A DNA stretch of 64,000 bases from an uncultured Bacillota bacterium (lineage in GTDB: Bacteria > Bacillota > Clostridia > Christensenellales > UBA1242). Shown piece by piece: positions 5,269 to 64,000 of this stretch. The translations under genes and the position numbers were made by a program. How positions within the stretch are numbered: position 1 is the first letter of the stretch; every line of letters begins with the position of its first letter. Location of the stretch: positions 17,291-81,290 of the forward strand of contig CASFPO010000007.1 of NCBI GenBank assembly GCA_949296805.1, read 5' to 3'. The notes beneath the pieces were generated by a model. The model was given only the letters and a program-made list of their open reading frames with translations. It did not search any database and had not been told where the DNA came from.

Positions 5269-7500
5269 ATGCAAATTGAAGGACCTATCGAAGAAATCAT
5301 TTTTAGGAATGAGCAGAATGGTTATACCGTTTTTATTCTTGATTTTAAGTCAACACCTGTAACTTGTGTTGGCAAGCTTGTCAATGCAAATGTAGGCGAA
5401 AATCTTCTGCTAGAGGGCGAGTATGTAAACAACTCTAAATACGGCTATCAGTTTGCCTTTTCAAACTATGAGGTAACCTTGCCTACCACCCTTGCTGGAA
5501 TTGAAAAGTATCTTGCCTCGGGGCTTATCAAAGGCGTTGGACCTGTCACTGCTAGAAATATTGTCAAGCATTTTAAAGAGGCTACCTTTGATATCATTGA
5601 TATGAGTCCGTCTTCGCTTGCTGAGGTTAAAAATATCAGCCTTAAAAAAGCACTTGAGATTGGAGATAAGTTCAAAGAGCTGAAAAAAGTTCAAAACACC
5701 GTTATGTTTTTGCAAAAGTATAACATAACTACCAACACCGCCTTAAAAATCTATGAGACTTATGGTGGAAACACCATCGAAGTTGTTAAAAATAACCCCT
5801 ATAAGCTGGTCGAAGATATTGACGGCATAGGGTTTTTGACTGCCGACCGTATCGCTAAAAATATCGGTATACCAGAGGATAGTCAGTACCGAGTGAGAGC
5901 TGGGCTTCTGCACGCACTAAACAGTTCGGTAGAAAAGACCGGCAACACCTTTCTGCCAAAGCAGATGCTTTTGTCTCAGGCAGAAAATATACTCAACCTT
6001 GACCGCTCTAGCTACTCTGAGCTGTATGAAAATGCACTTGAAAACTTAACCCTTGACAAAACGGTTATCATTATGTGGAAAAACAATACAGAAATAGCAG
6101 TGCCTACCAAGTATTATTATTATGAATATTCAGTCTCCCAAAAGCTTGCTCTGCTCAACTCCTCTCAAGTGATTGAAAAGCAAGAGGTGGAGGATGAGAT
6201 AAAATTCTTTGAAGAGAAAAACAGAATTACCTTTCATCAAGAGCAGAAAGAGGCTATCAAAAGTGCCATCAATAATGGCGTGTCGGTCATCACTGGCGGG
6301 CCTGGTACTGGCAAGACCACCATTATCAAATGCATCATAGATATTGTAAAGCAAAACAACAAACGCTTTATGCTTCTAGCTCCGACTGGGCGTGCGTCAA
6401 AGCGGATGAGTGACAGCACAGGCGAAGAGGCAAAGACCATACACCGAGCGTTAGAAGTTGCCTCGGGCGACCTTACAAACCGCTTTATCTATAACGAAAA
6501 CAACAACTTTAAAACCGATGTGGTTATCGTTGACGAAGTGTCAATGGTTGACGTTGCTTTAATGAACCATCTGTGCAAGGCTCTGCCTAGAGACTGCAAG
6601 CTTATCCTTGTGGGCGACAAAGACCAGCTCCCTAGTGTTGGTGCTGGAAATGTGCTAGATGACATTATCAAAAGCGGAGTAATCAAAGTTACAATGCTTA
6701 CCAAAATTTACAGGCAAAGTGATGACAGTTTGATTATCACAAATGCCCACCTTATCAATTCTGGGAAGATGCCTTTGATTGACAACTCTTCAAAAGACTT
6801 CTTTTTTGAAGAAAAAAACAATCTAGACAGCATAAAACAATCTATCGTTGACCTTGTTGTAAAACGCCTGCCGAACTTTACCAAACTTGAAAGCACGCAA
6901 ATTCAAGTACTCGCTCCCCTTAAGGCTGGCGTGTGTGGAATTGACAACTTAAACAAATGTTTGCAGGCAAGCCTCAACCCACCCGCTATGACCAAGATGG
7001 AAATAGTGGTTGGCGAGAGTATCTTTCGAGTGGGCGACAAGGTTATGCAGACGACAAACAATTATAACCTTGTCTGGAAAAAACTGAATGGCTTTATTGA
7101 AGAAAAAGGCGAAGGTGTGTTTAACGGAGATATCGGCTATATTGAGCTGATTGATTTTCAAACGGGCGAAGTAGTTGTTGACTTTGAAGATGGTAGGCGT
7201 TGTCTATACCCAAGAACTGAGGTCAGTCAGCTTTCGCTTGCCTATGCCATCACTATACATAAAAGCCAAGGCTCTGAGTTTGACGTTGTGGTGCTACCTG
7301 CTATTGCTGGGCCTAGTATGATACTTACACGAAACCTAATCTATACCGCAGTGACAAGGGCTAAAAAGATGGTGGTAATAGTTGGCGAGCAGAAAAACTT
7401 AAAACGAATGGTTTCAAATAATTACACAGTGCAAAGATTTACTCTACTAAAAGATTTACTTATAGAATCGGATAAAAAAATAAAAGAATTATTTGAATAA
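5269..7500 (+). CDS. recD2: RecD2-type ATP-dependent DNA helicase (RecD/TraA family)
   Basis: 743 aa. Walker A GGPGTGKTT, DEVSMVD (Walker B), C-terminal AYAITIHKSQGSEF...YTAVTRAK. Confidence 0.92.
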   Translation: MQIEGPIEEIIFRNEQNGYTVFILDFKSTPVTCVGKLVNANVGENLLLEGEYVNNSKYGYQFAFSNYEVTLPTTLAGIEKYLASGLIKGVGPVTARNIVKHFKEATFDIIDMSPSSLAEVKNISLKKALEIGDKFKELKKVQNTVMFLQKYNITTNTALKIYETYGGNTIEVVKNNPYKLVEDIDGIGFLTADRIAKNIGIPEDSQYRVRAGLLHALNSSVEKTGNTFLPKQMLLSQAENILNLDRSSYSELYENALENLTLDKTVIIMWKNNTEIAVPTKYYYYEYSVSQKLALLNSSQVIEKQEVEDEIKFFEEKNRITFHQEQKEAIKSAINNGVSVITGGPGTGKTTIIKCIIDIVKQNNKRFMLLAPTGRASKRMSDSTGEEAKTIHRALEVASGDLTNRFIYNENNNFKTDVVIVDEVSMVDVALMNHLCKALPRDCKLILVGDKDQLPSVGAGNVLDDIIKSGVIKVTMLTKIYRQSDDSLIITNAHLINSGKMPLIDNSSKDFFFEEKNNLDSIKQSIVDLVVKRLPNFTKLESTQIQVLAPLKAGVCGIDNLNKCLQASLNPPAMTKMEIVVGESIFRVGDKVMQTTNNYNLVWKKLNGFIEEKGEGVFNGDIGYIELIDFQTGEVVVDFEDGRRCLYPRTEVSQLSLAYAITIHKSQGSEFDVVVLPAIAGPSMILTRNLIYTAVTRAKKMVVIVGEQKNLKRMVSNNYTVQRFTLLKDLLIESDKKIKELFE

Positions 7501-7680
7501 TTTGTTAAATTTTGTCGAAAACAGTTTTCAACTGTTTTTAACAGCTTTTTACAATTTTTGACAGCTTTTATCATATTTTTTACAGCTTTTATCATTTTTT
7601 GACAGTTTTTAACTGTTTTTTAGCAGTTTTCTACATAGTTCTACAATATTTAACAAATTTAAATAATTTTTACAAAAGGA
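7501..7680 (+). repeat. About 17 units of ~10-bp-phased ACAGnTTTT / T-tract repeats (predicted curved DNA)
   Basis: Visible in register in the 10-nt print blocks (acagttttca actgttttta acagcttttt ...). Contains an exact TGTCGAA at 7513-7519. Confidence 0.8.
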
Positions 7681-20399: not shown

Positions 20400-21572
<1,173 letters not shown>

Positions 21573-21633
21573 TTAAACCTCTCTTAGAGCAATCGCTCCA
21601 ATTCACTATATGTGAAAAAAACAAAATTTGCTA

Positions 21634-21662
21634 TTGATTTTTACCTGAAAAGTTGTTATAAT
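21634..21662 (+). promoter_or_regulatory. sigma-A-type promoter
   Basis: TTGATT (21634-21639), 17 nt, TATAAT (21657-21662). Confidence 0.6.
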
Positions 21663-21722
21663 ATATAAAAATAAAGTTTGAAAAATAAGAATAAGCTTAA
21701 AATAATTACAAAAGGAGGCTAT

Positions 21723-22271
21723 ATGGAACAAAAAGAAATTGATGAAATGGGCGAATTTTTAAGCAATAAAATTAGTAGAGAACTTAAAACTCTATCTCGT
21801 TGCAAAAAAGCGTTAAAGTTGTATACTGCTTATCACGTTGTAAGATATAACAGAAAACCTGACCCAAATCCAAAGATTGAAATTGATAAAGAAAATTACA
21901 ATATACGAATGTCTGTATTTAAAGAAGACCAACTTAGCAAACTGGAACTTATGAGAAAAATTGATAAGGTCAGCCTTGACGAGCTAAATGATAGCCTTAA
22001 AAAACTTCAAGCACGAGAACCTGCAGACAATACAATCTTTATAGACGACTTACTGTCTGTGCTAAAAACCTATCCAAGTCTCCATTCAGAAGAACGCATT
22101 ATCGCCGGCATAGCTTTAGAAACCTTTTACCGCTTTGTACTAGACCAAAGATTTATTTCTCGTTTTAACTATGCCTTTTATGCCTCAGTTAAAGACACTT
22201 ATTTAACACTTCTTGCCGAAAAAGAAAAACCTAAACAGCAAGAAGATGACCTAGAACAAGAAGAAGATTAA
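21723..22271 (+). CDS. Hypothetical protein with acidic C-terminus
   Basis: Start moved to MEQKEIDEM (ATG 21723), which has an AAGGAGG RBS. No recognisable motif. Confidence 0.55.
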   Translation: MEQKEIDEMGEFLSNKISRELKTLSRCKKALKLYTAYHVVRYNRKPDPNPKIEIDKENYNIRMSVFKEDQLSKLELMRKIDKVSLDELNDSLKKLQAREPADNTIFIDDLLSVLKTYPSLHSEERIIAGIALETFYRFVLDQRFISRFNYAFYASVKDTYLTLLAEKEKPKQQEDDLEQEED

Positions 22272-22280
22272 TATCAAAAA

Positions 22281-22500
22281 TTGTTGAATTTTGTTGAAAA
22301 ATATGAATTTTTGTTGAATTGTCTGAATTATTGTAGAATAGTGTTGGATTGTGTTGAAATATTTGTATTTTTGTTGAATTGTCTGAATTATTGTAGAATA
22401 GTGTTGGATTGTGTTGAATAGTTTGAATTTTTGTTGAACTATTTGAATTTTTGTTGGAAATTGTTGGAAAATGTTGAATATGTAAAATTTTGTTAGAAAA
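22281..22500 (+). repeat. 22 units of an exactly 10-bp-phased repeat, consensus (T/G)TGTTGAAT(T/A)
   Basis: The units stay in register with the 10-nt print blocks for 220 bp. TGTTGAA x8, TGTTGGA x4, TGTAGAA x2. A 60-bp higher-order repeat links 22311-22370 and 22371-22430. Confidence 0.9.
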
Positions 22501-22743
22501 AACATAAAAATTGACAAAGTTTTTATGTTTTTTTATTGCTTTATATATTTTTATTCAAATGCAACCTTTTTTATTAATATTTGCATTTACAACTATTTTT
22601 TTAAGAGTTTAATCTTTATCTTTTTAACCTTTTCTGTAAAAGTGATAGGTTAGGCAAAATTCTTCGGCTTTAAAAACTTAAGGTACAAAAAATGCTAGCA
22701 AGCTTACAATTTTTTGCATAAGTAATTTTGTAAAGGAGAAACT

Positions 22744-23775
22744 ATGGCTAACGAAGATTTTTATATCGGTGCAAATGATGAGCATGGGGTAAATCCACCT
22801 ACTCCTGGCAAACGCACCCCATTTATTACCGAGCTTGGCAGACAAATTTATGAAAATGAGTTCAATCGCTCTGCCAAAAACAAATTTATTGAGGCTTGTA
22901 TGCGACAGGATTTTTCGGTATTTGATGTGAAGAGTGAGCTTCAAGACATTTCTATTTCTGAGCGAGTGAGGAGGATAAACTCGCAAAATTTGACCTTGCT
23001 TGTAACCTTTGCCTACAATGCCTTTGGCGAGGAATTTAATTCGGCTTCGGGGCTAGAGGTGTATTACTCTCTACTCAATCCTCAAGTGAACGCAAGCAAA
23101 ACGCTCTCAGAAGATGTTTACAACCGTTTAATTCAAGGTACATATCAAGTGGGAAGAGGGGTAAAAACGATAGATGTTGGAGTGCTTTCAAGTGTAAACT
23201 GCCCGTCAACGCTGATCGAGGCTGGCTTTATGACCAATTTAAGAGAGGCGGGACTTATGCTCAATCCTCTTTTTGTGACCGAGGTTGGCGAAGAGGCGTG
23301 CCAAGGCGTTTGTGACTTTTTGGGGGTAAGTTATCTGCCCCGAGACAACTTGTCGCTCTACCCTCTACTCAGAACGGGAAGCTCAAATAATTTTGTCTAT
23401 CTTCTGCAATTTATTTTAGCAAATCAGTATGGCTATTCCCTTGCAGTTGACGGAATTTTTGGCAGTCGAACTGCAAGTGCTGTGAGGGATTTTCAAGCAA
23501 ACAACTCTCTTTCTGTTGACGGGCTTGTGGGCAACAACACCTGGAAAACGCTGTTAACTCTGCCTCAATATCCACTGCTTAGAGAGGGCAACCGAGGAGC
23601 TTATGTAAGGTTTTTGCAACAACTGCTAGAGAGCAAACTCTATCCACTCGGCAACATTGACGGAATTTTTGGCAGTCAAACCTTGAATGCTGTATGCTCT
23701 TTTCAATCGGCAAACAATCTGGCAGTTGACGGAATTGTTGGACCAAATACTTGGGGCGTGCTTGCAACAACTTAA
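22744..23775 (+). CDS. N-acetylmuramoyl-L-alanine amidase (Amidase_3-like) with two C-terminal PG_binding_1 repeats
   Basis: EHGVNPPTPGKRTP...ENEFN...TFAYNAF...GLEVYYS. Two repeats of GIFGSxTxxAVxxFQxxNxLxVDGxVGxNTW. AAGGAG RBS. Confidence 0.8.
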   Translation: MANEDFYIGANDEHGVNPPTPGKRTPFITELGRQIYENEFNRSAKNKFIEACMRQDFSVFDVKSELQDISISERVRRINSQNLTLLVTFAYNAFGEEFNSASGLEVYYSLLNPQVNASKTLSEDVYNRLIQGTYQVGRGVKTIDVGVLSSVNCPSTLIEAGFMTNLREAGLMLNPLFVTEVGEEACQGVCDFLGVSYLPRDNLSLYPLLRTGSSNNFVYLLQFILANQYGYSLAVDGIFGSRTASAVRDFQANNSLSVDGLVGNNTWKTLLTLPQYPLLREGNRGAYVRFLQQLLESKLYPLGNIDGIFGSQTLNAVCSFQSANNLAVDGIVGPNTWGVLATT

Positions 23776-26630: not shown

Positions 26631-26930
26631 TTTGTCGAATAATTTGAATTTTTGTTGAATTTTTTGTATTTTTGTTGAATTATTTGAATTTTTTTGTATT
26701 TTTGTTGAATATTTTGTATTTTTTTGTAATTTTATGTATTTTTGTTGAATTTTTTGTAAAATTGTTGATTTTTTTGTATTTTTATGAATTTTTGTTGAAT
26801 TATTTACAATTTTCGACATTTTTTTATATTTTTTAAAATAATATTTTCTACAATATTTTTTATTATTTTACATTATTTTTTATTTTTTGATAATTTTATT
26901 TATTTTTTGACAAAATTTGACAAAGTTTTT
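26631..26930 (+). repeat. About 30 units of the same exactly 10-bp-phased repeat family (TTTGTTGAAT / TTTTTGTATT), grading into phased T-tracts
   Basis: In register with the print blocks. TGTTGAA x5, exact TGTCGAA at 26633-26639 and inverted TTCGACA at 26812-26818. Confidence 0.9.
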
Positions 26931-28002
26931 ATTCTTTTAAGTTATTAAAAAAGTTTTCATTATAAAGCACGCTAGCATTATCTGGCTTAAATTTTTTGGA
27001 AAGCTTATGATAAAACTTTGACCGCTTTTTATCCCCTAATCTATAATAACATACGCATAGCTCAAGGGCTGGCAAAAATTGGTAGCAGTCAAGGTTTACA
27101 AATCCGCCACCTGCCACATTTGGTTTTGCTTGCAAGGCTTGTTCGTACCAATATATTGCCTTTTTATATTCTCCGCTCTCCTCAAAGATTTTACCAATTT
27201 CAAACAGTACTTCCCCTCTTGGCAAGTCATAGACGAAGGAGCCAAAGAGTGCAGTTAAGGCATTGTTCTTTTCCTTTTTAAGTTGATAACATTTTGAGAG
27301 ATTTAAACAGGCTTCTATATTATTCTCGCTCCAGCCCTTGCCTTGCGAGAGAAAGACGGCAAAGGTGTGGATTGCCTCATCGATGAGATTGTTATAGTAT
27401 AGCTCCCTTGCATAGTAAAATTGTTGCCGTGGCGTAAAGGTTTTACCAGAGCTGAGCATTCTACGATATATATTTAAGTTCCTATCAGTGTGAGGTTTAT
27501 CTTTTCGGTTATGAAAAACAGATATATCCTCTCGGTAGATAACTTTGCCTTGAAGAGAGATAACTTCGTGAATTGGGTCTTGAAAGCGAAAGAGCGGGCT
27601 GTTTTTGACTATTCGCTCTCGCATAAATTTAAAGGTCGGCTCAAAGTTTTTTGTATAGGCAGTGACGTAGGAGCACATAACTACATCAAAATCCTGCTCG
27701 CTTGCTTTTAGCTCCTTTATCTTTTCCACGCTGTCCTTTAAGACAAGGTCATCGCCATCAAGCCACATAATATAGTCACTTGTTGCCTTATCAAAAGAAA
27801 AATTTCTTGCCTTTGAAAAGTCGTACACCCATTCAAAAAAGTAGACTTTATCGGTAAACTGCTTTGCTATCTCTACCGTTTTGTCTGTAGAGCCTGTATC
27901 GACTACAATTATCTCGTCTACGCAGTCTTTGACGCTTGTTAGGCACTCGGCTAGAGTTTTTTCTTCATCTTTTACTATTAGGCATAGTGATAGAGTTTTC
28001 AT
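26929..28002 (-). CDS. Family-2 glycosyltransferase fused to TPR repeats
   Basis: LSLCLIVKDEEKTLAECL...VVDTGSTDKT...WLDGDD (GT2 DxD), then a TPR-like C-terminal half (YYNNLIDEAIHTF..., EYKKAIYWYEQALQ). Confidence 0.82.
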   Translation of the reverse strand: MKTLSLCLIVKDEEKTLAECLTSVKDCVDEIIVVDTGSTDKTVEIAKQFTDKVYFFEWVYDFSKARNFSFDKATSDYIMWLDGDDLVLKDSVEKIKELKASEQDFDVVMCSYVTAYTKNFEPTFKFMRERIVKNSPLFRFQDPIHEVISLQGKVIYREDISVFHNRKDKPHTDRNLNIYRRMLSSGKTFTPRQQFYYARELYYNNLIDEAIHTFAVFLSQGKGWSENNIEACLNLSKCYQLKKEKNNALTALFGSFVYDLPRGEVLFEIGKIFEESGEYKKAIYWYEQALQAKPNVAGGGFVNLDCYQFLPALELCVCYYRLGDKKRSKFYHKLSKKFKPDNASVLYNENFFNNLKE

Positions 28003-42995: not shown

Positions 42996-43270
42996 TTAAA
43001 ACAAATTCTCCTTAAAAAATAATCTTACTATAATTTTAACCATTTTTACCTAAAAGTCAAATTTTTTATTGACTTACTATAAAAATTAATGTTACAAAAG
43101 GGCTTTTTTGAAATAAATTCAAGATATTTTAGCGGATTTTTTGCTTATCTTAACTAATTAATTAATTTTATTTTGAAAAAATCAGCCAATTTATTAAAAC
43201 TGCTATTGACTTAAAATAATTATTGTTGTATAATAAACATAAGATATTTTTAGTAAAAAAAGGAGATATT

Positions 43271-45646
43271 ATGGGATTTCTATCAGCAATAAAAAAGAAG
43301 ATTAGCTCTCTTTCCGCTAGCATAAAAGACAGCAGAAGATACCGCCCTGCTTATCTTAAAGAAGCGGTAAAATCTGCCGACCTTAAGAAAGATACTTTTT
43401 CTGGCTACAACGCAGTCAACGGCTTTCAGCTTAGAACAGGCGAGAGCAATTTTATAGAAAAGACAGCCTATTATGAGGACTTTTCTACCGCTCATTTTGA
43501 TAAAAATTTTGCTAAAAAGCACAAAAATATTGATGATGTGCTTGCTTTTGTAAAAAATTTGGCGAATTTTATTCCAGAAAGTGAATACCGCACGCAAATT
43601 AACACTGCAAATAGGCGAAGAAGAGGCTCTTCTTCAAACCCTACTCAGCTTTCGGTAGAAGGGCTATTTGAATACTTTTCGGGCGGGCAGAATTTGAGCG
43701 AAGAGGACATTATCGCCTACTCAAACATTGCCAAAAACACTCAAGCAAAAGCTAGAGCCCTTGCCTATATCAAAGCTAACTTTGTTAGCATTTGCAATAT
43801 GCGTTCTTTATCGGACAAAGACGAAAAGGCAAGTCTTGACAAGTATAAGGAGCTATTTTCTATCATCAAAGATTATTGTGATGAGGACATCAACAAATTT
43901 AATATTACCGAGTTTAACCCAGAAAATATCAATAGTGAAATATTATCTTCAGAGAACAACCTTTTAAAAGGTGCATATTTTGCTCAGATTAGGTGTGACG
44001 AGCTTGTTAAAACAAGGATTAATCAAGAGCTTGCCAAGGCAGAAAAGCTTAACCAGTTTGCCGAGGAGCTTTCTAGCAATATGCAAACTTATGATAAAAG
44101 CATTGAGGCAATTGACAATATAAACAATGCAAAACTTGCAAGAGAGCAAGCCCTCGCCCTTAAACTCGAGGAGACTGACGAAAAGTTAATTGAAGCCCTT
44201 GACTACTTTAGAAGAATGCCTTCTTGCAGTGACAAAACTCTTGAAAAATTATGGATTACTGGCAAGAGAGATGCTAAAAAGGCAGGCACACTTAGACAGC
44301 AAGAGCTACTTGACTCGCTTGAGCGAATGGTTAGGTCAAGTGCCTTTGATATGTATGATGCGATTAGCCAAAAACAAATTGACGCTTTAGACAAGCCTTA
44401 CAGTCAAGAAGAAAGACTTGTAACAGTTTTTGATAGTAATAGTAACGAAACTGACAAAATAGCAAATCTTAGTGCTAAGGACTTTTCTATCTTTGGCGGA
44501 GAAGATGGCGACTATAACGCTTTTATTAATACTCTTGTTTCATATAATGAATATGACGGAGTTGACCACAGTGGCGACATTTTAAGAGTGCGAGTTGATA
44601 ATAGCCAAGACCCACCTATGCTTTACACTGACAGACAAGAAAAGGTGCTTAAAAGCATCTATCTTAAGCTAAACAATTATGCAAAACAGATGGTCAATTC
44701 TGCTGACTTTGATGGCAATCCGCTTAAAAACCTTTGCTACAGCTCACTTAGAAAGTCTATTGACGATAACGCTTTAGACAAACTAGCAACTATTCTTTAT
44801 GGAGACAATGTAAAGCAAGGTCAAATATTTACCTACCCTACTTTTGCCAAGCTTTCAGTAAAACAACTTGAGGCGATTGGCGACTTTGTAACCACTTACA
44901 AACCAGTAAAATCTTTCTTGCAAGACACTGGGCTTAAAGAAAGCGACCTTGACAATTATGAGATTGACAGACAACTTGTTGAGCAACTTTCGCCAGAAAA
45001 ATCTCCAAGATACTGCAAACTTAAATATGTGATGAACTCTATGCAACGCAGTGCCCTTGAGTATAACCGAGAAACTTTAAAGCAAAGGCAGGAGCAGAAT
45101 GAAAAAGCCATCAACTCAAATCTTGTAGACAGCGAAACTTTATTTGAAGATGCAAAGATTTGCTTAGAAAATATTCAAGATATATACGATGAAAACAAAA
45201 CGATTGAAGAAAAAGAAGAATATGAAATTGCACCTGACACCGTAGCCCAAGGTGCTGACAGCAACAATGACGCTAAGGATAGAATTGACACCTTTGCATA
45301 TGGTATGTTACAAAGTGCTTTCCTTCCTGATGAGCCAGAACAAATCAATCAAAACACCGTACGTTTGGGCAAAATACAACCAAGCAACAGATTAGCCTTT
45401 GAAGAGAAAACTTTTGAAGAGAACATTGACGAACTTGTACAACTAACCAAAGATACCCTAAAGGATTATTCAAATGACCTTAAAAAATTGCCTAAACTTA
45501 CTAAAAAGCAAAAGGCAGAGCTTTACGCAAAGCATATAACCGCTAGCGACTATAAAACTATCAGCAATTGGACAAATTTTATTAGTGAGACGGTTAAAGC
45601 GTTGCAAACTAGTGAAAACTTCCAAGAAAATGAAAGTTCAATTTAA
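43271..45646 (+). CDS. Large hypothetical protein (791 aa), predominantly helical, N-terminal amphipathic MGFLSAIKKKISSL
   Basis: Start moved to ATG 43271 (AAAGGAG RBS). No TM segment, signal peptide or catalytic motif recognised. Confidence 0.7.
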   Translation: MGFLSAIKKKISSLSASIKDSRRYRPAYLKEAVKSADLKKDTFSGYNAVNGFQLRTGESNFIEKTAYYEDFSTAHFDKNFAKKHKNIDDVLAFVKNLANFIPESEYRTQINTANRRRRGSSSNPTQLSVEGLFEYFSGGQNLSEEDIIAYSNIAKNTQAKARALAYIKANFVSICNMRSLSDKDEKASLDKYKELFSIIKDYCDEDINKFNITEFNPENINSEILSSENNLLKGAYFAQIRCDELVKTRINQELAKAEKLNQFAEELSSNMQTYDKSIEAIDNINNAKLAREQALALKLEETDEKLIEALDYFRRMPSCSDKTLEKLWITGKRDAKKAGTLRQQELLDSLERMVRSSAFDMYDAISQKQIDALDKPYSQEERLVTVFDSNSNETDKIANLSAKDFSIFGGEDGDYNAFINTLVSYNEYDGVDHSGDILRVRVDNSQDPPMLYTDRQEKVLKSIYLKLNNYAKQMVNSADFDGNPLKNLCYSSLRKSIDDNALDKLATILYGDNVKQGQIFTYPTFAKLSVKQLEAIGDFVTTYKPVKSFLQDTGLKESDLDNYEIDRQLVEQLSPEKSPRYCKLKYVMNSMQRSALEYNRETLKQRQEQNEKAINSNLVDSETLFEDAKICLENIQDIYDENKTIEEKEEYEIAPDTVAQGADSNNDAKDRIDTFAYGMLQSAFLPDEPEQINQNTVRLGKIQPSNRLAFEEKTFEENIDELVQLTKDTLKDYSNDLKKLPKLTKKQKAELYAKHITASDYKTISNWTNFISETVKALQTSENFQENESSI

Positions 45647-45653
45647 TAACTTT

Positions 45654-45681
45654 AAAAAAGCATAAATTTTATGCTTTTTTT
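45654..45681 (+). terminator. Intrinsic terminator between the two large hypothetical genes
   Basis: GCATA (45660-45664)/TATGC (45670-45674) core within AGCATAAATTTTATGCT, then T7. Confidence 0.75.
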
Positions 45682-45724
45682 GTTGACCCAAAAGTATTAA
45701 AATTTTGCCCTTCCGCCATTTTTC

Positions 45725-45753
45725 TTGACAAATAACTTATATAATGATATTAT
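45725..45753 (+). promoter_or_regulatory. Candidate promoter of the 1765-aa gene
   Basis: TTGACA (45725-45730), 17 nt, TATTAT (45748-45753). Confidence 0.5.
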
Positions 45754-45785
45754 TATACTATAATACTTTATACAAAGGAGTAAAT

Positions 45786-48700
45786 ATGGCAGTAGAAAAT
45801 TCTGTTTCTATTAACGTAGATGTTAACGCACAAAACTCAGAAGGCAAACCGCTTAGTCAAAAAATAACAATGCACAACAAGCATTTTTGGGACGAAGACT
45901 CTTATTTTGCTTGTAGCGATGGCAGTGATAACCTTTTGCAAGTGGGACCTAAAAAATTAGTTCACTATTTTACCCTTAGCGGACTTGACAAATTTTTATC
46001 AGAGGATGGGCGATCGCTTTCAGCTGACAGCACACTTGCCTCTATCCTAACAAAAGGTATTTCCCTTGGAATGCACTCTTTGCAGGTAAGCCAAAATGGT
46101 AAAGACCTTAATATTGATATTGACGCCTCGGGCTACCATATCTCTGTTACACCAAGACAAATTACTTTAACTTATTCTAGTGGCGAGGAGAAGAAAAGCT
46201 ATTCTTACTCGTCAGAGGGCTGTGTTGATGTATCTTTTAATGCCATTGTAGTTATAAATATGCTGCTTTCTGAGCGAGCTACCACTGTAAAAAGTGCTGA
46301 AGATATTTATGACATACCACCTTATTTGCTTGGAATGTATTTTAAAAATCACAAAGATGACTTTACTAACAAGATAGACAAAACAAAGCTTACAAAAATC
46401 ACTTTTACTGAAGATGGACAGCCTTACTGCTTTGTTACCCACGTCAATAAAAAAAATGAAAGAGAAGTTTTGCTTTTTACAGGCGGAAAACTAGTACCTT
46501 TACAAGATATTATGGAGCCTCAGTATGACCCGTCTACCAACAGCTATAACCTTGTTGCTACTTCAAAATCGGCTGAGCATCCAGAACACTTTGCTATACC
46601 TATTGAAGTAGACGAAGAGGGCTTTATTTCTGACAAAACTTTAACAGGACTTTCTGTTCTATTTGTTGAAACCAGACTTGATTATGATGTTACCGCACCA
46701 GATGGAACGTATATAGACTTTATTAATGAGGTAGATGGCAAGGAAAAACTAAATAAAGACGCTTTTGTTGAAAAAGGCACTATAGAATATACCCCAAACT
46801 TTTTTGCCATAATGCCAGTAGAGGCTGAAGGTAACGAGGCTGAGGGTGACGCTAGTAGCACAAGTGGTAGCGAAGAGGCAACAGGAACTGGTGGCGAAGA
46901 TCCAGCAGGTGCTGGTAGCGAAGAGCCTACGGGAGCTGAAAGTGAAGAGTCGGCAGAAACCAGTGGCAGTGCGTCAGCAGGAGAACCAGCAGGAGCTGAT
47001 GGTGGAGAGCCAGCTGGTGCGGGGGCTGGTGGCGGAGCTGGTGCTAGTGCGTCATCTGGTGCGGGAGATAGAAGCGGAGAGGCTTCTGGCAAACCACATG
47101 CCAACAATCCATACCTTAACTACTACAATTATCAAAACAGTGCTGAAGCCAAGCAAGAGCTTAAAGAGAGAAATGCTCAATTTAAGGCAAATATGCAAAC
47201 TTTTAACACTGCAATGGGCGACAGTTTGTTCGGAGTTGGTGCTATTATGACGCTTGTTTCACTTATACCAGGGGTTGGGCTTGCAGTAATGATACCTGGG
47301 TTGATACTATCTTGCGTAGGACTTGTGCAAACAACTTTTGCCGATGACCTTGTATTTAGTCCTTTTAAGGTTGCAAAACACAAGATAAGAGATTACCGAT
47401 TTGAAGAGGGAGAAGAATTTGAGTACCGTAGCAAGTTTTTAGAGCGAGAGAAGGAGCTTGACAGACTGCACGAAAATTCGCAGGAGGCGTTAAGTGAATT
47501 TCTTTCAATATACTCAAATTTAGGCGAAGGCGAAAATACCTTTGCCCTCACTTTGGCAGAGCTATTTAACAGCAATGGTGTGGGCATAGCTATAGACGGC
47601 GACAAGATGTCACAACTCCACTCGCTTGACCATTTAGACCAAAGTATAGCTATGGCGTCTATCCTTGAGCAGATAGCGAGCGAAACGTCAGAAGAAGAAA
47701 AAGCCAAGCTTATTGAAAGTTTTGCAGACAATTATTTTCAAGACTTAACCGAGGAGCAGTTAAATTTAATTAATACCACCCTCTTCAGTGACAGTAACAA
47801 AGAAGGGCTAAAGGCTTATTTAAGGCAACTAAACCAAACAAATACCGTTTTAGCACAAGAGAGAACACTGTTTAACTCTCAGCAACAGGAGCTTGATAAT
47901 GCGACCATCTATCGAATAAAGTTTTTTGCTAGCACGCCACAGCTTTCTGAGGAGCAGAGAGTAAAATTATTTGAGAGATATGGCGAAGATATTATAAAAT
48001 TTGCCCTTACTAAATATAACGGCTCTGCGCAGATTCTAGAAAGTATTGTATCCTCTGCGCCAGAGGGCACTCAAGCTCAGCTTAACGAGATACTTGACAA
48101 CGCTTTTGATAGGGTTCAAGCCAAGTTTGACTCAATAGATAAGCAAGCGTCTGACAATGTTGCAAAACACGAGCAAGTAGAGGTTTTGCGTGGGTTTGCT
48201 GGTGCTATATCACAGCTTGAAAATGTGGGCGACAATCTTGTGACAATTGACCAGCTTAGCCAATCGGTAAAGGAGTTTACAAATGGTTGCACTCAGCTCT
48301 TGCATCAAGACAGCAAAGCAATGGAAAGCCTTGGCGCAATTGCTGATGCATTAGTTCGAGGCAAGTCTCATCTTGACGCTTCGCATAGAAATGAACAATC
48401 TATTCTCAATCAAATTGCTAGCTATTTTGCAGGGTTTGAGGATACTTCGGCTGAGGCTACAAGTTTGACTGACAAGCAAAAGGAATGTTTTGAAAAACTT
48501 GAAGAGGCAGGCTTTTATAAAGAGATTGCCACTTTGTATCAGCATCAATCGACTCGCACTTTGCTTCCAGCTTTATCTGGCAAGGTAGAGAGCGAGGAGA
48601 GTATAATTAATATTGTAGACATTTTGGCAAAGGAGAGGTTACTCTCTGTTATTGAAGAGGCTAGCAAGAGCAGTGGCGCACGAACACTGCTGAGCAAAAA

Positions 48701-51089: not shown

Positions 51090-51125
51090 AATAAGGCAAT
51101 TTAATTTTTGCCTTATTTTTTTATT
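51090..51125 (+). terminator. Intrinsic terminator
   Basis: AATAAGGCAA (51090-51099)/TTGCCTTATT (51108-51117), then a T-run. Confidence 0.85.
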
Positions 51126-51420
51126 TTTATTATTTTTTTAATTTTTTAAACTTTTTTATTATTTTTTTATATTTTTTTAATTTTTTTGTAATTTATCATT
51201 ATTTTTTATTAATTTTACCTATTTTTAATTATTTTTTAATTATTTTTATTAATTTTTTATTATTTTTTTATTATTTTTTAGCTTTTTTTATTATTTTCTT
51301 ATTAATTATCATTATTTTTTATCATATTAATTAAAAAATATATTTTTATTTTAAAAAATAATTTTATCAGATAAATTTTATTTTATTTTTAAAGCACAAA
51401 ATTTTTAGTTTTGACTTTAC
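51126..51420 (+). repeat. About 300 bp of almost pure A/T with ~10-bp-phased T-tracts
   Basis: Print blocks repeatedly end in T-runs (ttatttttat tattttttta attttttaaa ...). Only a handful of G/C. Confidence 0.8.
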
Positions 51421-61748: not shown

Positions 61749-64000
61749 ATGGAAAGCAAAAAGTCACTTGATGAAATTTTCAAAGATGCGAAAATTGAAA
61801 AAGTCGATACTGTTGACAATCTAAAAAAATCTTTTATCTCATATGCGATGGCGGTTAATGTGTCAAGAGCCATCCCTGATGTGCGAGATGGACTTAAACC
61901 TGTGCACCGCCGTATCCTATTTGATATGGGCGAGATGGGCAACTTCTACGACAAGCCTACCAAAAAATGTGCCAGAATTGTCGGCGACGTAATGGGTAAA
62001 TACCACCCGCACGGAGATAGCTCGGTATATGACGCAATGGTAAGACTTGCTCAAGACTTTTCCATCCGCTATCCGCTTATTGATGGTCAAGGTAACTTTG
62101 GCTCTGTCGATGGCGACCCTCCTGCCGCTATGCGTTACACTGAGGCTCGCCTTTCTAAGATTGCCTCGCTAATGCTTGAGGATATAGACAAAAACACCGT
62201 TGACTTTTATCCTAACTTTGACAATACCTTAGAGCAACCTGCCGTACTTCCAGCCAAGATACCTAACCTACTTATAAACGGTTCTGACGGTATTGCCGTT
62301 GGTATGGCGACAAATATTCCGCCTCACAATCTAACAGAGGTTTTAAACGGTTTGCAAGCCCTTATTGACAATCCTGAGATTGATATTGACGAGCTTATTA
62401 AGATTATTCCTGCTCCTGACTACCCTACTGGCGGGATTATTATGGGCAGAACGGCTGTAAAACACGCCTACAAGACTGGGCGTGGCGGAATTGTAGTGCG
62501 TGGGCGTGCTGAGATTGAAGAGACTGCGTCTGGGCGAAGTAGAATTATTATTACCGAGCTTCCTTATCAAGTAAACAAAGCACAGCTTATTATACAAATA
62601 GCCGACCTTGTAAAAAACAAACGCCTTGACGGTATCAGTGACATTAAAGAAGAATCTGACCGAAAAGGTATGAGAATTGTTATTGACATAAAGAAGGATT
62701 TTAACGCACAGGTAGTACTTAACAGCCTGTATAAGATGACACAACTTCAAAAGAGCGGTGGAATAATCTTTCTTGCCTTAGTTAATGGCACTCCAAGAAT
62801 ACTTAACTTAAAGGAGATGTTATACTACTATCTTGAGCATCAAAAGGAAGTTTTGACTCGCAAGACTCAGTTTGAGCTAGCAAAAGCCAAGGAGCGAGAG
62901 CATATTGTAAAGGGTTTGGTAATCGCCCTTGCAAGCATTGATGAGGTAATTGCCATCATCAAGTCTTCTGAAGATAAGCAAGAGGCAGTAACAAGGCTTA
63001 CTCAAAACTTTGAGCTTGACGAAACTCAAGCAAACGCTATACTTGAGATGAAATTGTCAAGGCTTACCTCACTAGAAGTTGAAAAGCTCAATCAAGAGCT
63101 TCGTGAACTTGACGCCTTGATCATCGACCTTGAGGATATTCTTGCCACCCCTGCCCGCATCTTAAAAATACTTAGGGATAATTTTGAAGAGATTAAAAAG
63201 CAGTTTGGCGACAAGCGTAAAACAGAGATTAGTTTTGACGCTGGTGGCATTGATGTTGCCGACCTTATTGAAAAAGAGGATGTTGTTGTCTCTTTAACTA
63301 AGCAAGGTTACATCAAGCGAATGTCAACAAGTGAGTATAAGGCTCAAAATCGTGGAGGAGTTGGCGTAACCGCACACAAGACTAAGGAAGAAGATTATGT
63401 TACCACTATGTTTGTAACCTGCACGCACGATGACCTGTTATTCTTCTCAAGTCGAGGGCGAGTGTACTGCATTAAGGCTTATGAAATTCCAGAAGCTCAA
63501 CGCACGGCTAAAGGTAGGGCTATTATCAACCTTTTAATGCTCAGTGAGGGCGAAAAGATTACTGCTGTGATACCTAGAAAGGAAGGCGATAGTGGTAATT
63601 TAATTATGGTTACAAGAAAGGGACTTATCAAAAAGACTGCTCTTGACGAGTTTGCCTCTATCAGAAAGGCAGGCAAAGTTGCCATCCATCTAGTTGAAGA
63701 TGACGAGCTGATTGGCGTGGAGCTTTCTTGCGGAAGTGACGATATTTTGATTGCCTCTCATTTTGGCAAATGTATCCGCTTTAATGAAAGTGATGTGCGC
63801 TGTATGGGAAGAGAAAGTCAAGGCGTACGCAGTATGAGGCTTGCAAGTGGCGATTATATTGTTGATATGACTATTATTAAGCCAAATACTCAAATTATTA
63901 CCATTTCTGAAAATGGATATGGCAAGCGAAGTGATGTGAGTGAGTATAGACTTCAGTCTCGAGGCGGAAAAGGTATTAAAGCTGGCAACTTTAACGAAAA
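61749..64000 (+). CDS. gyrA: DNA gyrase subunit A (3' end beyond the window)
   Basis: Not in the ORF track because there is no stop in the window. Manual translation: [19 protein letters not shown]...[18 protein letters not shown]...[23 protein letters not shown]...[19 protein letters not shown]. Confidence 0.97.

What the first reader, a model, noticed from the sequence alone, without database searches (positions are those of the whole stretch)
22281..22500. 220 bp of an exactly 10-bp-phased TGTTGAA repeat (22 units), one mismatch from the Spo0A 0A box
The array stays in perfect register with the 10-nt print blocks: ttgttgaatt ttgttgaaaa atatgaattt ttgttgaatt gtctgaatta ttgtagaata gtgttggatt gtgttgaaat ... 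I counted TGTTGAA 8 times, TGTTGGA 4 times and TGTAGAA 2 times, with a 60-bp higher-order repeat.

A strict 10.0-bp period places every site on nearly the same helical face. This is the geometry of plasmid parC-type centromeres and of cooperative response-regulator arrays. TGTTGAA differs by one base (C to T) from the established 0A box TGTCGAA. The sister array at 26631 contains exact TGTCGAA and TTCGACA.

The two arrays are in direct orientation and bracket a ~4.1-kb segment holding the amidase, the repeat protein, tRNA-Ser and the nucleoside hydrolase. Possible roles are a titration or decoy array for Spo0A or another regulator, a nucleoid-protein loading site, a centromere-like site, or the borders of a mobile segment.
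Basis: partly seen in the sequence, partly recalled or inferred. Interest (0 to 1): 0.6.

Follow-up and report, generated by a model that had tools for sequence, protein, structure and literature searches.

The report
Long array of Spo0A-type boxes
A 220-bp non-coding stretch in a tiny spore-forming gut Clostridia genome holds 22 same-strand, 10-bp-spaced copies of a known weak variant of the binding site of the sporulation master regulator Spo0A, so it is probably an unusually large docking site for that regulator, although binding is untested.

Summary
A 60-bp higher-order repeat matches at 56/60.

The genome (1.12 Mb, an uncultured gut Clostridia MAG) encodes a bona fide Spo0A, plus SigK-like, SpoIIE and SpoIIGA genes. 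Four independent lines tie the unit to Spo0A:
- TGTtGAA-N3-TGTtGAA is a published Spo0A footprint in phage Nf.
- Four such phased boxes lie upstream of this genome's own spo0A. Relatives carry canonical TTCGACA boxes in the corresponding upstream region.
- Near-perfect tandem pairs are rare in the genome (9). They lie in the arrays, at spo0A and at a sigK-like gene.
- A matrix built from relatives' spo0A promoters scores 14 of 22 in-phase units above the genome's 99th percentile.

My best reading is a fast-evolving, low-affinity, cooperative operator array for a Spo0A-family protein, made by tandem duplication. It would act as a local high-threshold switch, a regulator sink, or both.

The centromere, iteron and mobile-border readings find no support. 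Curvature alone does not explain this array. Arrays of this kind are rare: 2 of about 66 congeners, and ≥4 boxes in 2 of 401 Clostridia. Function is inferred, not shown.

The parts
22281..22500 (+). Array B, the finding: 22 head-to-tail 10-bp units with consensus TTGTTGAATT. The box is TGTTGAA, the C4->T variant of the 0A box.
22311..22430 (+). Two copies of a 60-bp higher-order unit (six boxes each, 56/60 identical). This is a recent tandem duplication.
22510..22526 (+). ATTGACAAAGTTTTTAT, a motif shared with the end of array C. It contains a reverse-type box or a -35-like TTGACA. Its role is unexplained.
26631..26800 (+). Array C, forward part: 17 units. TTGTTGAAT x6 and TTGTCGAAT x1 alternate with degenerate TTTTTGTAT units.
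26801..26933 (+). Array C, 3' part. Box orientation flips here (TTTACAA, TTCGACA, TTCTACA, TTTTACA, TTTGACA x2) within phased T-tracts. It ends in TTTGACAAAGTTTTTAT.
7490..7665 (+). Array A: three forward units (including TGTCGAA at 7513) followed by about 13 reverse units (TTTTGACAG, TTTTTACAG, TTTCAACTG). It lies between recD2 and comFC.
21678..22271 (+). Upstream gene P0001 (182-197 aa, no family hit). In 4 genomes it lies divergent from a BclA-like collagen gene. It is not associated with arrays elsewhere.
22744..23775 (+). Downstream gene: an Amidase_3 + 2x PG_binding_1 cell-wall hydrolase, 245 bp after the array. A CATA-type -10 (sigma E/K-like) lies about 25 nt before the ATG, as in its orthologs.

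Best explanation
Array B is a tandem array of low-affinity Spo0A operator boxes, and so are its sisters at 26631, at 7490, and on contigs C27 and C34. Each unit is the C4->T variant (TGTTGAA) of the 0A box TGTCGAA. The units are head to tail with a 3-bp spacer. This is the arrangement in which two Spo0A DNA-binding domains sit side by side on tandem boxes. Twenty-two boxes offer about eleven adjacent dimer sites, so occupancy should be cooperative and should need high Spo0A activity. What is shown: the sequence anatomy, the presence of Spo0A, and the use of the same boxes at genuine Spo0A-target promoters in this genome and clade. What is inferred: the array arose by tandem duplication of a box pair (20-bp and 60-bp units) inside an AT-rich spacer. 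Once occupied, it would act locally on the flanking cell-wall and surface genes as a roadblock or high-threshold switch, act as a sink for the regulator, or both.
For: (1) The genome encodes Spo0A. It scores above the NCBIfam equivalog cut-off and aligns to the 1LQ1 and 1FC3 DNA-binding domains, with recognition helix SKVERGMRHAIEVAW. SigK-like, SpoIIE and SpoIIGA genes are also present.
(3) Four phased boxes (TGTTGAA, TGATGGA, TGTTGAG, TGTTGAA) lie 60-100 bp upstream of this genome's spo0A and of its nearest relatives'. About 75 other relatives carry canonical TTCGACA boxes phased at 10 bp in that upstream region, and some have TTCGACA-N3-TTCAACA.
(4) In 301 genomes of the order, the only two triple TGTYGAA arrays lie directly upstream of spo0A.
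(5) Tandem pairs with at most 1 mismatch number 9 in this genome against 0-3 in shuffles. Six are in the arrays, one is at spo0A and one is about 45 bp upstream of a sigK-like gene. The spoIIE upstream region has four phased reverse boxes.
(6) A matrix was built from 114 unselected neighbour boxes in 77 relatives' spo0A promoters. It scores array B in phase at a mean of 4.39 bits, against a genome 99th percentile of 4.23. Fourteen of 22 units exceed that percentile. Out-of-phase means range from -0.4 to -4.8. The best of 1500 random windows scores 1.30.
(7) Array B is only at the 10th percentile of predicted curvature, so bending alone does not explain it.
Against: No binding data exist and none can be obtained here. 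C4 is a contacted base, and mutating it (C4A) lowers affinity about 10-fold in C. difficile, so each box is weak. The arrays show no common gene context: they lie upstream of an amidase, in a convergent gap, between recD2 and comFC, after tadA, and upstream of ppdK. Orthologous amidase loci in 8 congeners have no array. Arrays of this type occur in only 2 of about 66 genus genomes. This fits fast neutral turnover as well as it fits function. Perfect TGTTGAA 10-bp iterons also occur in unrelated viral contigs, so the word and period are not unique to Spo0A. This genome also has many phased T-tract spacers.
Confidence: 0.55

Rival explanations
1. The array is a neutral minisatellite. A box pair or an AT-rich 10-bp word expanded by slippage or unequal crossing-over. 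The array has no selected function, and any Spo0A binding is incidental.
For: The 20-bp and 60-bp higher-order structure includes a 56/60 recent duplication. The array is absent from orthologous loci and from nearly all congeners. The arrays share no gene context. The genome is repeat-rich and has many phased T-rich spacers.
Against: The units are only 57% alike pairwise, yet no indel breaks the register over 220 bp. The conserved positions are those of the 0A box (T1, G2, T3, G5, A6, A7), not just T-tracts. A second species, G062, independently has the same word at several loci, including spo0A and a deacetylase promoter.
Confidence: 0.2
2. The arrays are bound mainly by the stand-alone Spo0A_C paralog (contig C12, about 145 aa, helix SLVDRSMRHAMKMSF) rather than by Spo0A itself.
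For: The paralog exists in this genome. Its own promoter carries a conserved inverted operator, TTTTGTAAA...TTTACAAAA, doubled at 10 bp in this genome, in G062 and in L122. Arrays A and C contain many TGTAWWW/TTTACAA units and share the forward-then-reverse layout. The closest ortholog (63%) is in G062, the other array-bearing species.
Against: Array B keeps G at box position 5 in most units and matches the spo0A-promoter matrix, not TGTAAAA. Paralogs occur in roughly a third or more of the genus, and most of those genomes have no arrays.
Confidence: 0.12
3. The array is a structural DNA element. Phased A/T tracts would give intrinsic curvature that serves an upstream promoter or nucleoid packaging, with no sequence-specific regulator.
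For: Arrays A, C, D and E and the T-rich array at 51116 rank in the top 0.005-0.25% of predicted curvature. At least six further phased T-tract spacers exist in the genome.
Against: Array B itself is at only the 10th percentile of curvature (the wedge parameters were recalled from memory). Curvature does not require the conserved G2 and G5. The scan found no convincing sigma-70 promoter next to array B.
Confidence: 0.08
4. The arrays are iterons or a parC-type centromere of an integrated replicon, or the direct-repeat borders of a mobile 4.1-kb segment.
For: There are two same-orientation arrays, 72-74% alike, 4.1 kb apart. The bracketed genes have phage-family hits (endolysin-like amidase, DUF6291), and a tRNA-Ser lies inside. 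Ten-bp TGTTGAA iterons exist in viral contigs.
Against: No rep, par, integrase or transposase gene lies in or beside the segment. The flanks are housekeeping genes: RecD2, ComFC, QueH, rubrerythrin. The units are degenerate, unlike iterons. Similar arrays lie at unrelated loci (C27, C34, window 7490). No phage or plasmid record is similar.
Confidence: 0.03

Closest known systems
Tandem 0A boxes bound by Spo0A (B. subtilis abrB and spo0A promoters; phage phi29/Nf site 0A-1'; PDB 1LQ1)
   Same: The heptamer family is the same. The exact variant TGTtGAA is footprinted in phage Nf. The boxes are head to tail with a 3-bp spacer, giving a 10-bp period. The organism has a Spo0A with a conserved recognition helix.
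   Different: Known sites have 1-4 boxes at defined promoter positions. Here there are 22-30 contiguous boxes. One array lies 245 bp from the next gene and another lies in a convergent gene gap. Binding is untested.
Repeated decoy transcription-factor sites (synthetic tetO arrays in yeast, PMC3322331; response-regulator decoy titration, PMC8599769)
   Same: Many tandem binding sites outside a core promoter could sequester a regulator and sharpen or delay its dose-response.
   Different: Those are engineered or theoretical cases for other regulators. I know of no natural Spo0A decoy array, and the full-text search found none.
Plasmid iterons and parC-type centromeres (R1 parC, pSK41 parC, P1/F/R6K iterons)
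   Same: Direct repeats at about one helical turn form a cooperative protein-DNA filament.
   Different: No Rep, ParR or ParM partner gene is nearby. The context is chromosomal. The repeats are degenerate rather than near-identical, and there are multiple dispersed arrays.
Phased A-tract curved DNA upstream of promoters in AT-rich Firmicutes
   Same: The AT-rich sequence has a 10-bp period and is intergenic. Sister arrays are predicted to be strongly curved.
   Different: Array B is not predicted to be notably curved, and it conserves G positions that curvature does not need.

Membership tests
Spo0A operator (0A-box site) | Core heptamer TGTCGAA or a near-consensus variant known to be bound | tested here: met
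   TGTTGAA x8 plus one-off variants. TGTtGAA pairs are footprinted by Spo0A in phage Nf (PMC2731898).
Spo0A operator (0A-box site) | Tandem same-strand boxes with a 3-bp spacer (10-bp centre-to-centre) | tested here: met
   There are 22 units in exact 10-bp register.
Spo0A operator (0A-box site) | The host encodes Spo0A with a conserved DNA-recognition helix | tested here: met
   PF08769 scores 134 bits. TIGR02875 scores 215 against a cut-off of 200. The protein aligns to 1LQ1 and 1FC3.
Spo0A operator (0A-box site) | The same box type is used at accepted Spo0A targets in the same organism or clade | tested here: met
   The spo0A promoter, the sigK-like promoter and spoIIE upstream all carry such boxes. 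A matrix from relatives' spo0A promoters scores the array in the top 1%.
Spo0A operator (0A-box site) | Position relative to a regulated promoter | tested here: inconclusive
   Array B ends 245 bp before the amidase ATG. The scan found no clear sigma-70 promoter. Array C lies in a convergent gap.
Spo0A operator (0A-box site) | Physical binding by Spo0A | not testable with these tools
   This needs EMSA, footprinting or DAP-seq.
Plasmid iterons / parC-type centromere | Adjacent rep or par (ParR/ParM/ParA) gene and a mobile replicon context | tested here: not met
   The neighbours have no such Pfam or PHROG hits. Housekeeping genes flank the region. No plasmid or phage record is similar.
Plasmid iterons / parC-type centromere | Near-identical repeat units | tested here: not met
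   Mean pairwise unit identity is 57%.
Intrinsically curved promoter-upstream DNA | Phased A/T tracts giving high predicted curvature | tested here: inconclusive
   Array B is at the 10th percentile, whereas its sister arrays are in the top 0.25%. The model parameters were recalled from memory.
AbrB-type transition-state regulator site (paired TGGNA) | The genome encodes an AbrB/SpoVT-fold protein | tested here: not met
   PF04014 finds nothing in a 97%-complete genome.
Borders of a mobile segment | A recombinase gene and presence/absence polymorphism of the bracketed segment | tested here: inconclusive
   No recombinase is present. Three assemblies are identical.

The most novel reading that the evidence does not exclude
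The arrays are natural decoy or titration sites that tune the sporulation threshold. In this whole lineage Spo0A carries Glu instead of the phospho-acceptor Asp56. It may therefore be controlled by its concentration rather than by a phosphorelay. In a 1.1-Mb genome, about 70-100 extra low-affinity boxes would buffer free Spo0A and make the switch sharper. Their rapid gain and loss between species would then be a simple evolutionary dial on when cells commit to sporulation.
Probability: 0.12. Interest if true: 0.85.

Novelty: new variant of a known kind. Interest (0 to 1): 0.6.

Why it matters
Spo0A sites are normally one to four boxes at promoters. A 22-30-box array would be the largest natural docking site known for this regulator. 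It would be a candidate natural example of transcription-factor titration by repeated sites in bacteria. It occurs in a reduced-genome, uncultured gut sporeformer whose Spo0A lacks the canonical phospho-acceptor. How such organisms set the sporulation threshold is an open question, and simple in vitro and surrogate-host experiments could test it.

Tried and rejected
- A strict lag-10 autocorrelation scan at ≥0.68 missed array B, which is too degenerate. It was replaced by a combined lag-10/20/30 score and by box-chain scans.
- Orthologous amidase loci in 8 congeners show no array and no synteny.
- P0001 as the array's binding partner was rejected. Its homologs in G062, G010 and G037 have no array beside them.
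- The Spo0A_C paralog does not co-occur specifically with arrays. It is widespread in the genus.
- A shift in Spo0A specificity was rejected. The recognition helix is invariant across 80 relatives whatever the box type.
- Rfam shows nothing but tRNA-Ser. BLAST against phages and plasmids gives no match.
- The viral-contig pattern scan found only unrelated perfect iterons.
- AbrB was rejected because the gene is absent.
- Strain comparison failed.
- The promoter and terminator scans were uninformative.

Full report
**Observation.** Window 22281-22500 reads as 22 ten-base units with no insertion or deletion. The unit consensus is TTGTTGAATT, and the best-kept positions are T2, T4, A7, G6 and G3. 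Autocorrelation is stronger at lag 20 (0.67) than at lag 10 (0.55). Positions 22311-22370 and 22371-22430 match at 56 of 60. The array is therefore built from box pairs, with one recent 60-bp duplication. The units are otherwise only 57% alike pairwise, yet the register is never broken. The same intergenic sequence is identical in two other public assemblies, and a short-read assembly of another run breaks inside the array. It is therefore not an artefact of one assembly.

**Organism and context.** The genome is 1.12 Mb, 33% G+C, in 49 contigs and 97% complete. Its relatives are uncultured gut Clostridia MAGs of 0.8-1.3 Mb. Contrary to my first guess, it is a sporeformer. It encodes a Spo0A above the NCBIfam equivalog cut-off, a second stand-alone Spo0A_C protein, a SigK-like sigma factor, SpoIIE and SpoIIGA. 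Array B lies between an unknown 182-197-aa gene and an Amidase_3 + PG_binding_1 hydrolase. The wider 17-36 kb region encodes pilin-like, collagen-like (BclA-type), glycosyltransferase and giant surface proteins. Genes at 5-16 kb are housekeeping.

**Is the word a Spo0A box?** Five independent lines say yes.
[quoted passage not shown] That is exactly the unit and spacing here. In C. difficile, G2, C4 and G5 are the contacted bases, and single mutations such as C4A cost about 10-fold in affinity (PMC3485338). TGTTGAA should therefore be a weak site.
- **The spo0A promoter.** In this genome, four boxes phased at 10 bp (TGTTGAA, TGATGGA, TGTTGAG, TGTTGAA) lie 60-100 bp upstream of spo0A itself. 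The two nearest relatives have the same arrangement. About 75 other relatives carry canonical TTCGACA boxes phased at 10 bp in that upstream region, and several have TTCGACA-N3-TTCAACA.
- **The order.** Across 301 genomes, the only two triple TGTYGAA arrays lie directly upstream of spo0A genes.
- **This genome.** Tandem pairs with at most one mismatch number nine, against 0-3 in shuffles. Six are in arrays, one is at spo0A, and one is about 45 bp upstream of the SigK-like gene. The spoIIE upstream region has four phased reverse boxes.
- **A matrix from relatives.** It was built from the 114 unselected neighbours (±10 bp) of anchor boxes in 77 relatives' spo0A promoters, and reads nTGT[C/T][G/T][A/T]A. 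It scores array B in phase at a mean of 4.39 bits, above the genome's 99th percentile for 10-mers (4.23). Fourteen of 22 units exceed that percentile. Out-of-phase registers average -0.4 to -4.8. The best of 1500 random 220-bp windows reaches 1.30. The same matrix recovers this genome's own spo0A promoter.

The Spo0A recognition helix is invariant across the clade. TGTTGAA is therefore a tolerated weak variant, not a new specificity. CpG is depleted in the genome (observed/expected 0.67), which may favour the C-to-T drift of boxes.

**Census.** A combined lag-10/20/30 scan finds five phased arrays in the genome, three of them in this window. Box-chain scans add C27:59850-59990 and C34:7937-7976. 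Arrays A and C, and the longest array of the congener G062, share a forward-then-reverse layout. The genome also has at least six phased T-tract spacers without good boxes.

Among 61 genus genomes, only this one and G062 have repeated TGTTGAA-N13-TGTTGAA. Five further close relatives have none. Among 401 Clostridia genomes, only two have four or more consecutive boxes. Orthologous amidase loci in eight congeners have no array and no synteny. Long arrays are therefore rare and evolutionarily young.

**Rivals.**
- **Curvature.** A wedge-model calculation, with parameters recalled from memory, puts arrays A, C, D and E in the top 0.25%. Array B is only at the 10th percentile. Bending alone does not explain the finding.
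- **Iterons, centromere or mobile borders.** No rep, par or recombinase genes are nearby. The units are degenerate, the context is chromosomal, and no phage or plasmid is similar. Perfect TGTTGAA iterons do exist in unrelated viral contigs, so the word alone is not diagnostic.
- **AbrB.** The fold is absent from the genome.
- **The stand-alone Spo0A_C paralog.** This is a live alternative. Its own promoter carries a conserved inverted operator, TTTTGTAAA...TTTACAAAA, doubled at 10 bp in three species. Arrays A and C contain many such units. Array B, however, keeps the G of position 5 and fits the spo0A-promoter matrix.
- **Neutral minisatellite growth.** This cannot be excluded. It fits the patchy distribution and the lack of a common gene context.

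**Mechanism proposed.**
- Shown: the anatomy, the regulator gene, and the same boxes at genuine targets.
- Inferred: Spo0A dimers fill adjacent box pairs cooperatively at high regulator activity. The 10.0-bp period makes bound proteins wind about once around the helix over the array. The filled array either blocks or switches transcription of the flanking wall and surface genes, or sequesters regulator.

The amidase and five of its orthologs have a CATA-type -10 about 25 nt before the start codon. This hints at a mother-cell sporulation promoter, so the neighbourhood is plausibly sporulation-linked.

**A notable side observation.** Spo0A in this whole lineage has Glu at the phospho-acceptor position. 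This makes a concentration-driven switch, and hence titration by arrays, worth testing.

**Limits.** No binding, expression or strain-variation data could be obtained.

Noticed in passing
G000 contig C35:14444-15187 (L001:1084-1827); relatives L030-L109: Spo0A of this lineage has Glu at the phospho-acceptor position. PDFLISEVMLSEIDG aligns to B. subtilis PDVLVLDIIMPHLDG. About 74 of 80 relatives share this, and more distant ones keep Asp. This suggests a phosphorylation-independent Spo0A.
   Followed up: partly
G000 contig C12:20355-20900 (L002:1780-2030, minus strand); L119-L123: A stand-alone Spo0A_C paralog (about 145 aa) has a conserved inverted operator, TTTTGTAAA...TTTACAAAA, in its own promoter. 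The operator is doubled at 10-bp spacing in three species.
   Followed up: partly
window 22510-22526 and 26917-26933; G062 L146:1701-1800: The motif TTGACAARGTTTTTAT follows both arrays B and C. It recurs three times in a 33-bp tandem repeat in the collagen/P0001 island of a congener. Its role is unknown, and it does not fit a sigma-70 promoter.
   Followed up: partly
window 51116-51322; C48:9967-10228; C49:37935-38131; C14:3158-3255; C41:15-118; C42:107-173: These are phased T-tract spacers with a 10-11 bp period and no good 0A-like boxes. Several rank among the most curved DNA of the genome in a wedge model.
   Followed up: partly
G000 contig C45:61102-61821 and 61863-61879 (L110): A SigK-like pro-sigma gene has a TGTTGAA-N3-TGTCGAA pair about 45 bp upstream of its start codon.
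   Followed up: partly
G000 contig C16: about 2270-2310, upstream of spoIIE (start 2355): Four reverse boxes phased at 10 bp (TTCTACA, TATGATT, TATGACA, TAAGACA) lie upstream of spoIIE.
   Followed up: no
window 22715-22725; L005, L006, L009, L011 at about 1470-1480: The amidase gene and its orthologs share a CATA-type element 22-30 nt before the ATG. It resembles the -10 of mother-cell sigma E/K promoters.
   Followed up: no
window 20400-22271; L146, L147, L148: The unknown gene P0001 is found in only 4 of 61 genus genomes. It always lies divergent from a BclA-like collagen gene, which suggests an exosporium-type module.
   Followed up: partly
window about 43000-46000: Cumulative GC skew reaches its minimum here. 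Gene orientation switches from minus to plus at about 43.1 kb. This could be a replication origin or terminus, or a local effect.
   Followed up: no
viral contigs L125-L127, L132-L134, L137, L142, L144: A family of about 15-18 kb viral contigs (47-52% G+C) carries perfect GCTGTTGAAT x3-9 iterons next to a second iteron type (GTGTCATTAC). They are unrelated to Spo0A hosts.
   Followed up: no
G000 contig C37:5200-5700: A second copy of the DUF6291 repeat-protein gene carries CCTAAC-type coding repeats. Next to it is a phased A-tract stretch that is the second most curved window of the genome.
   Followed up: no
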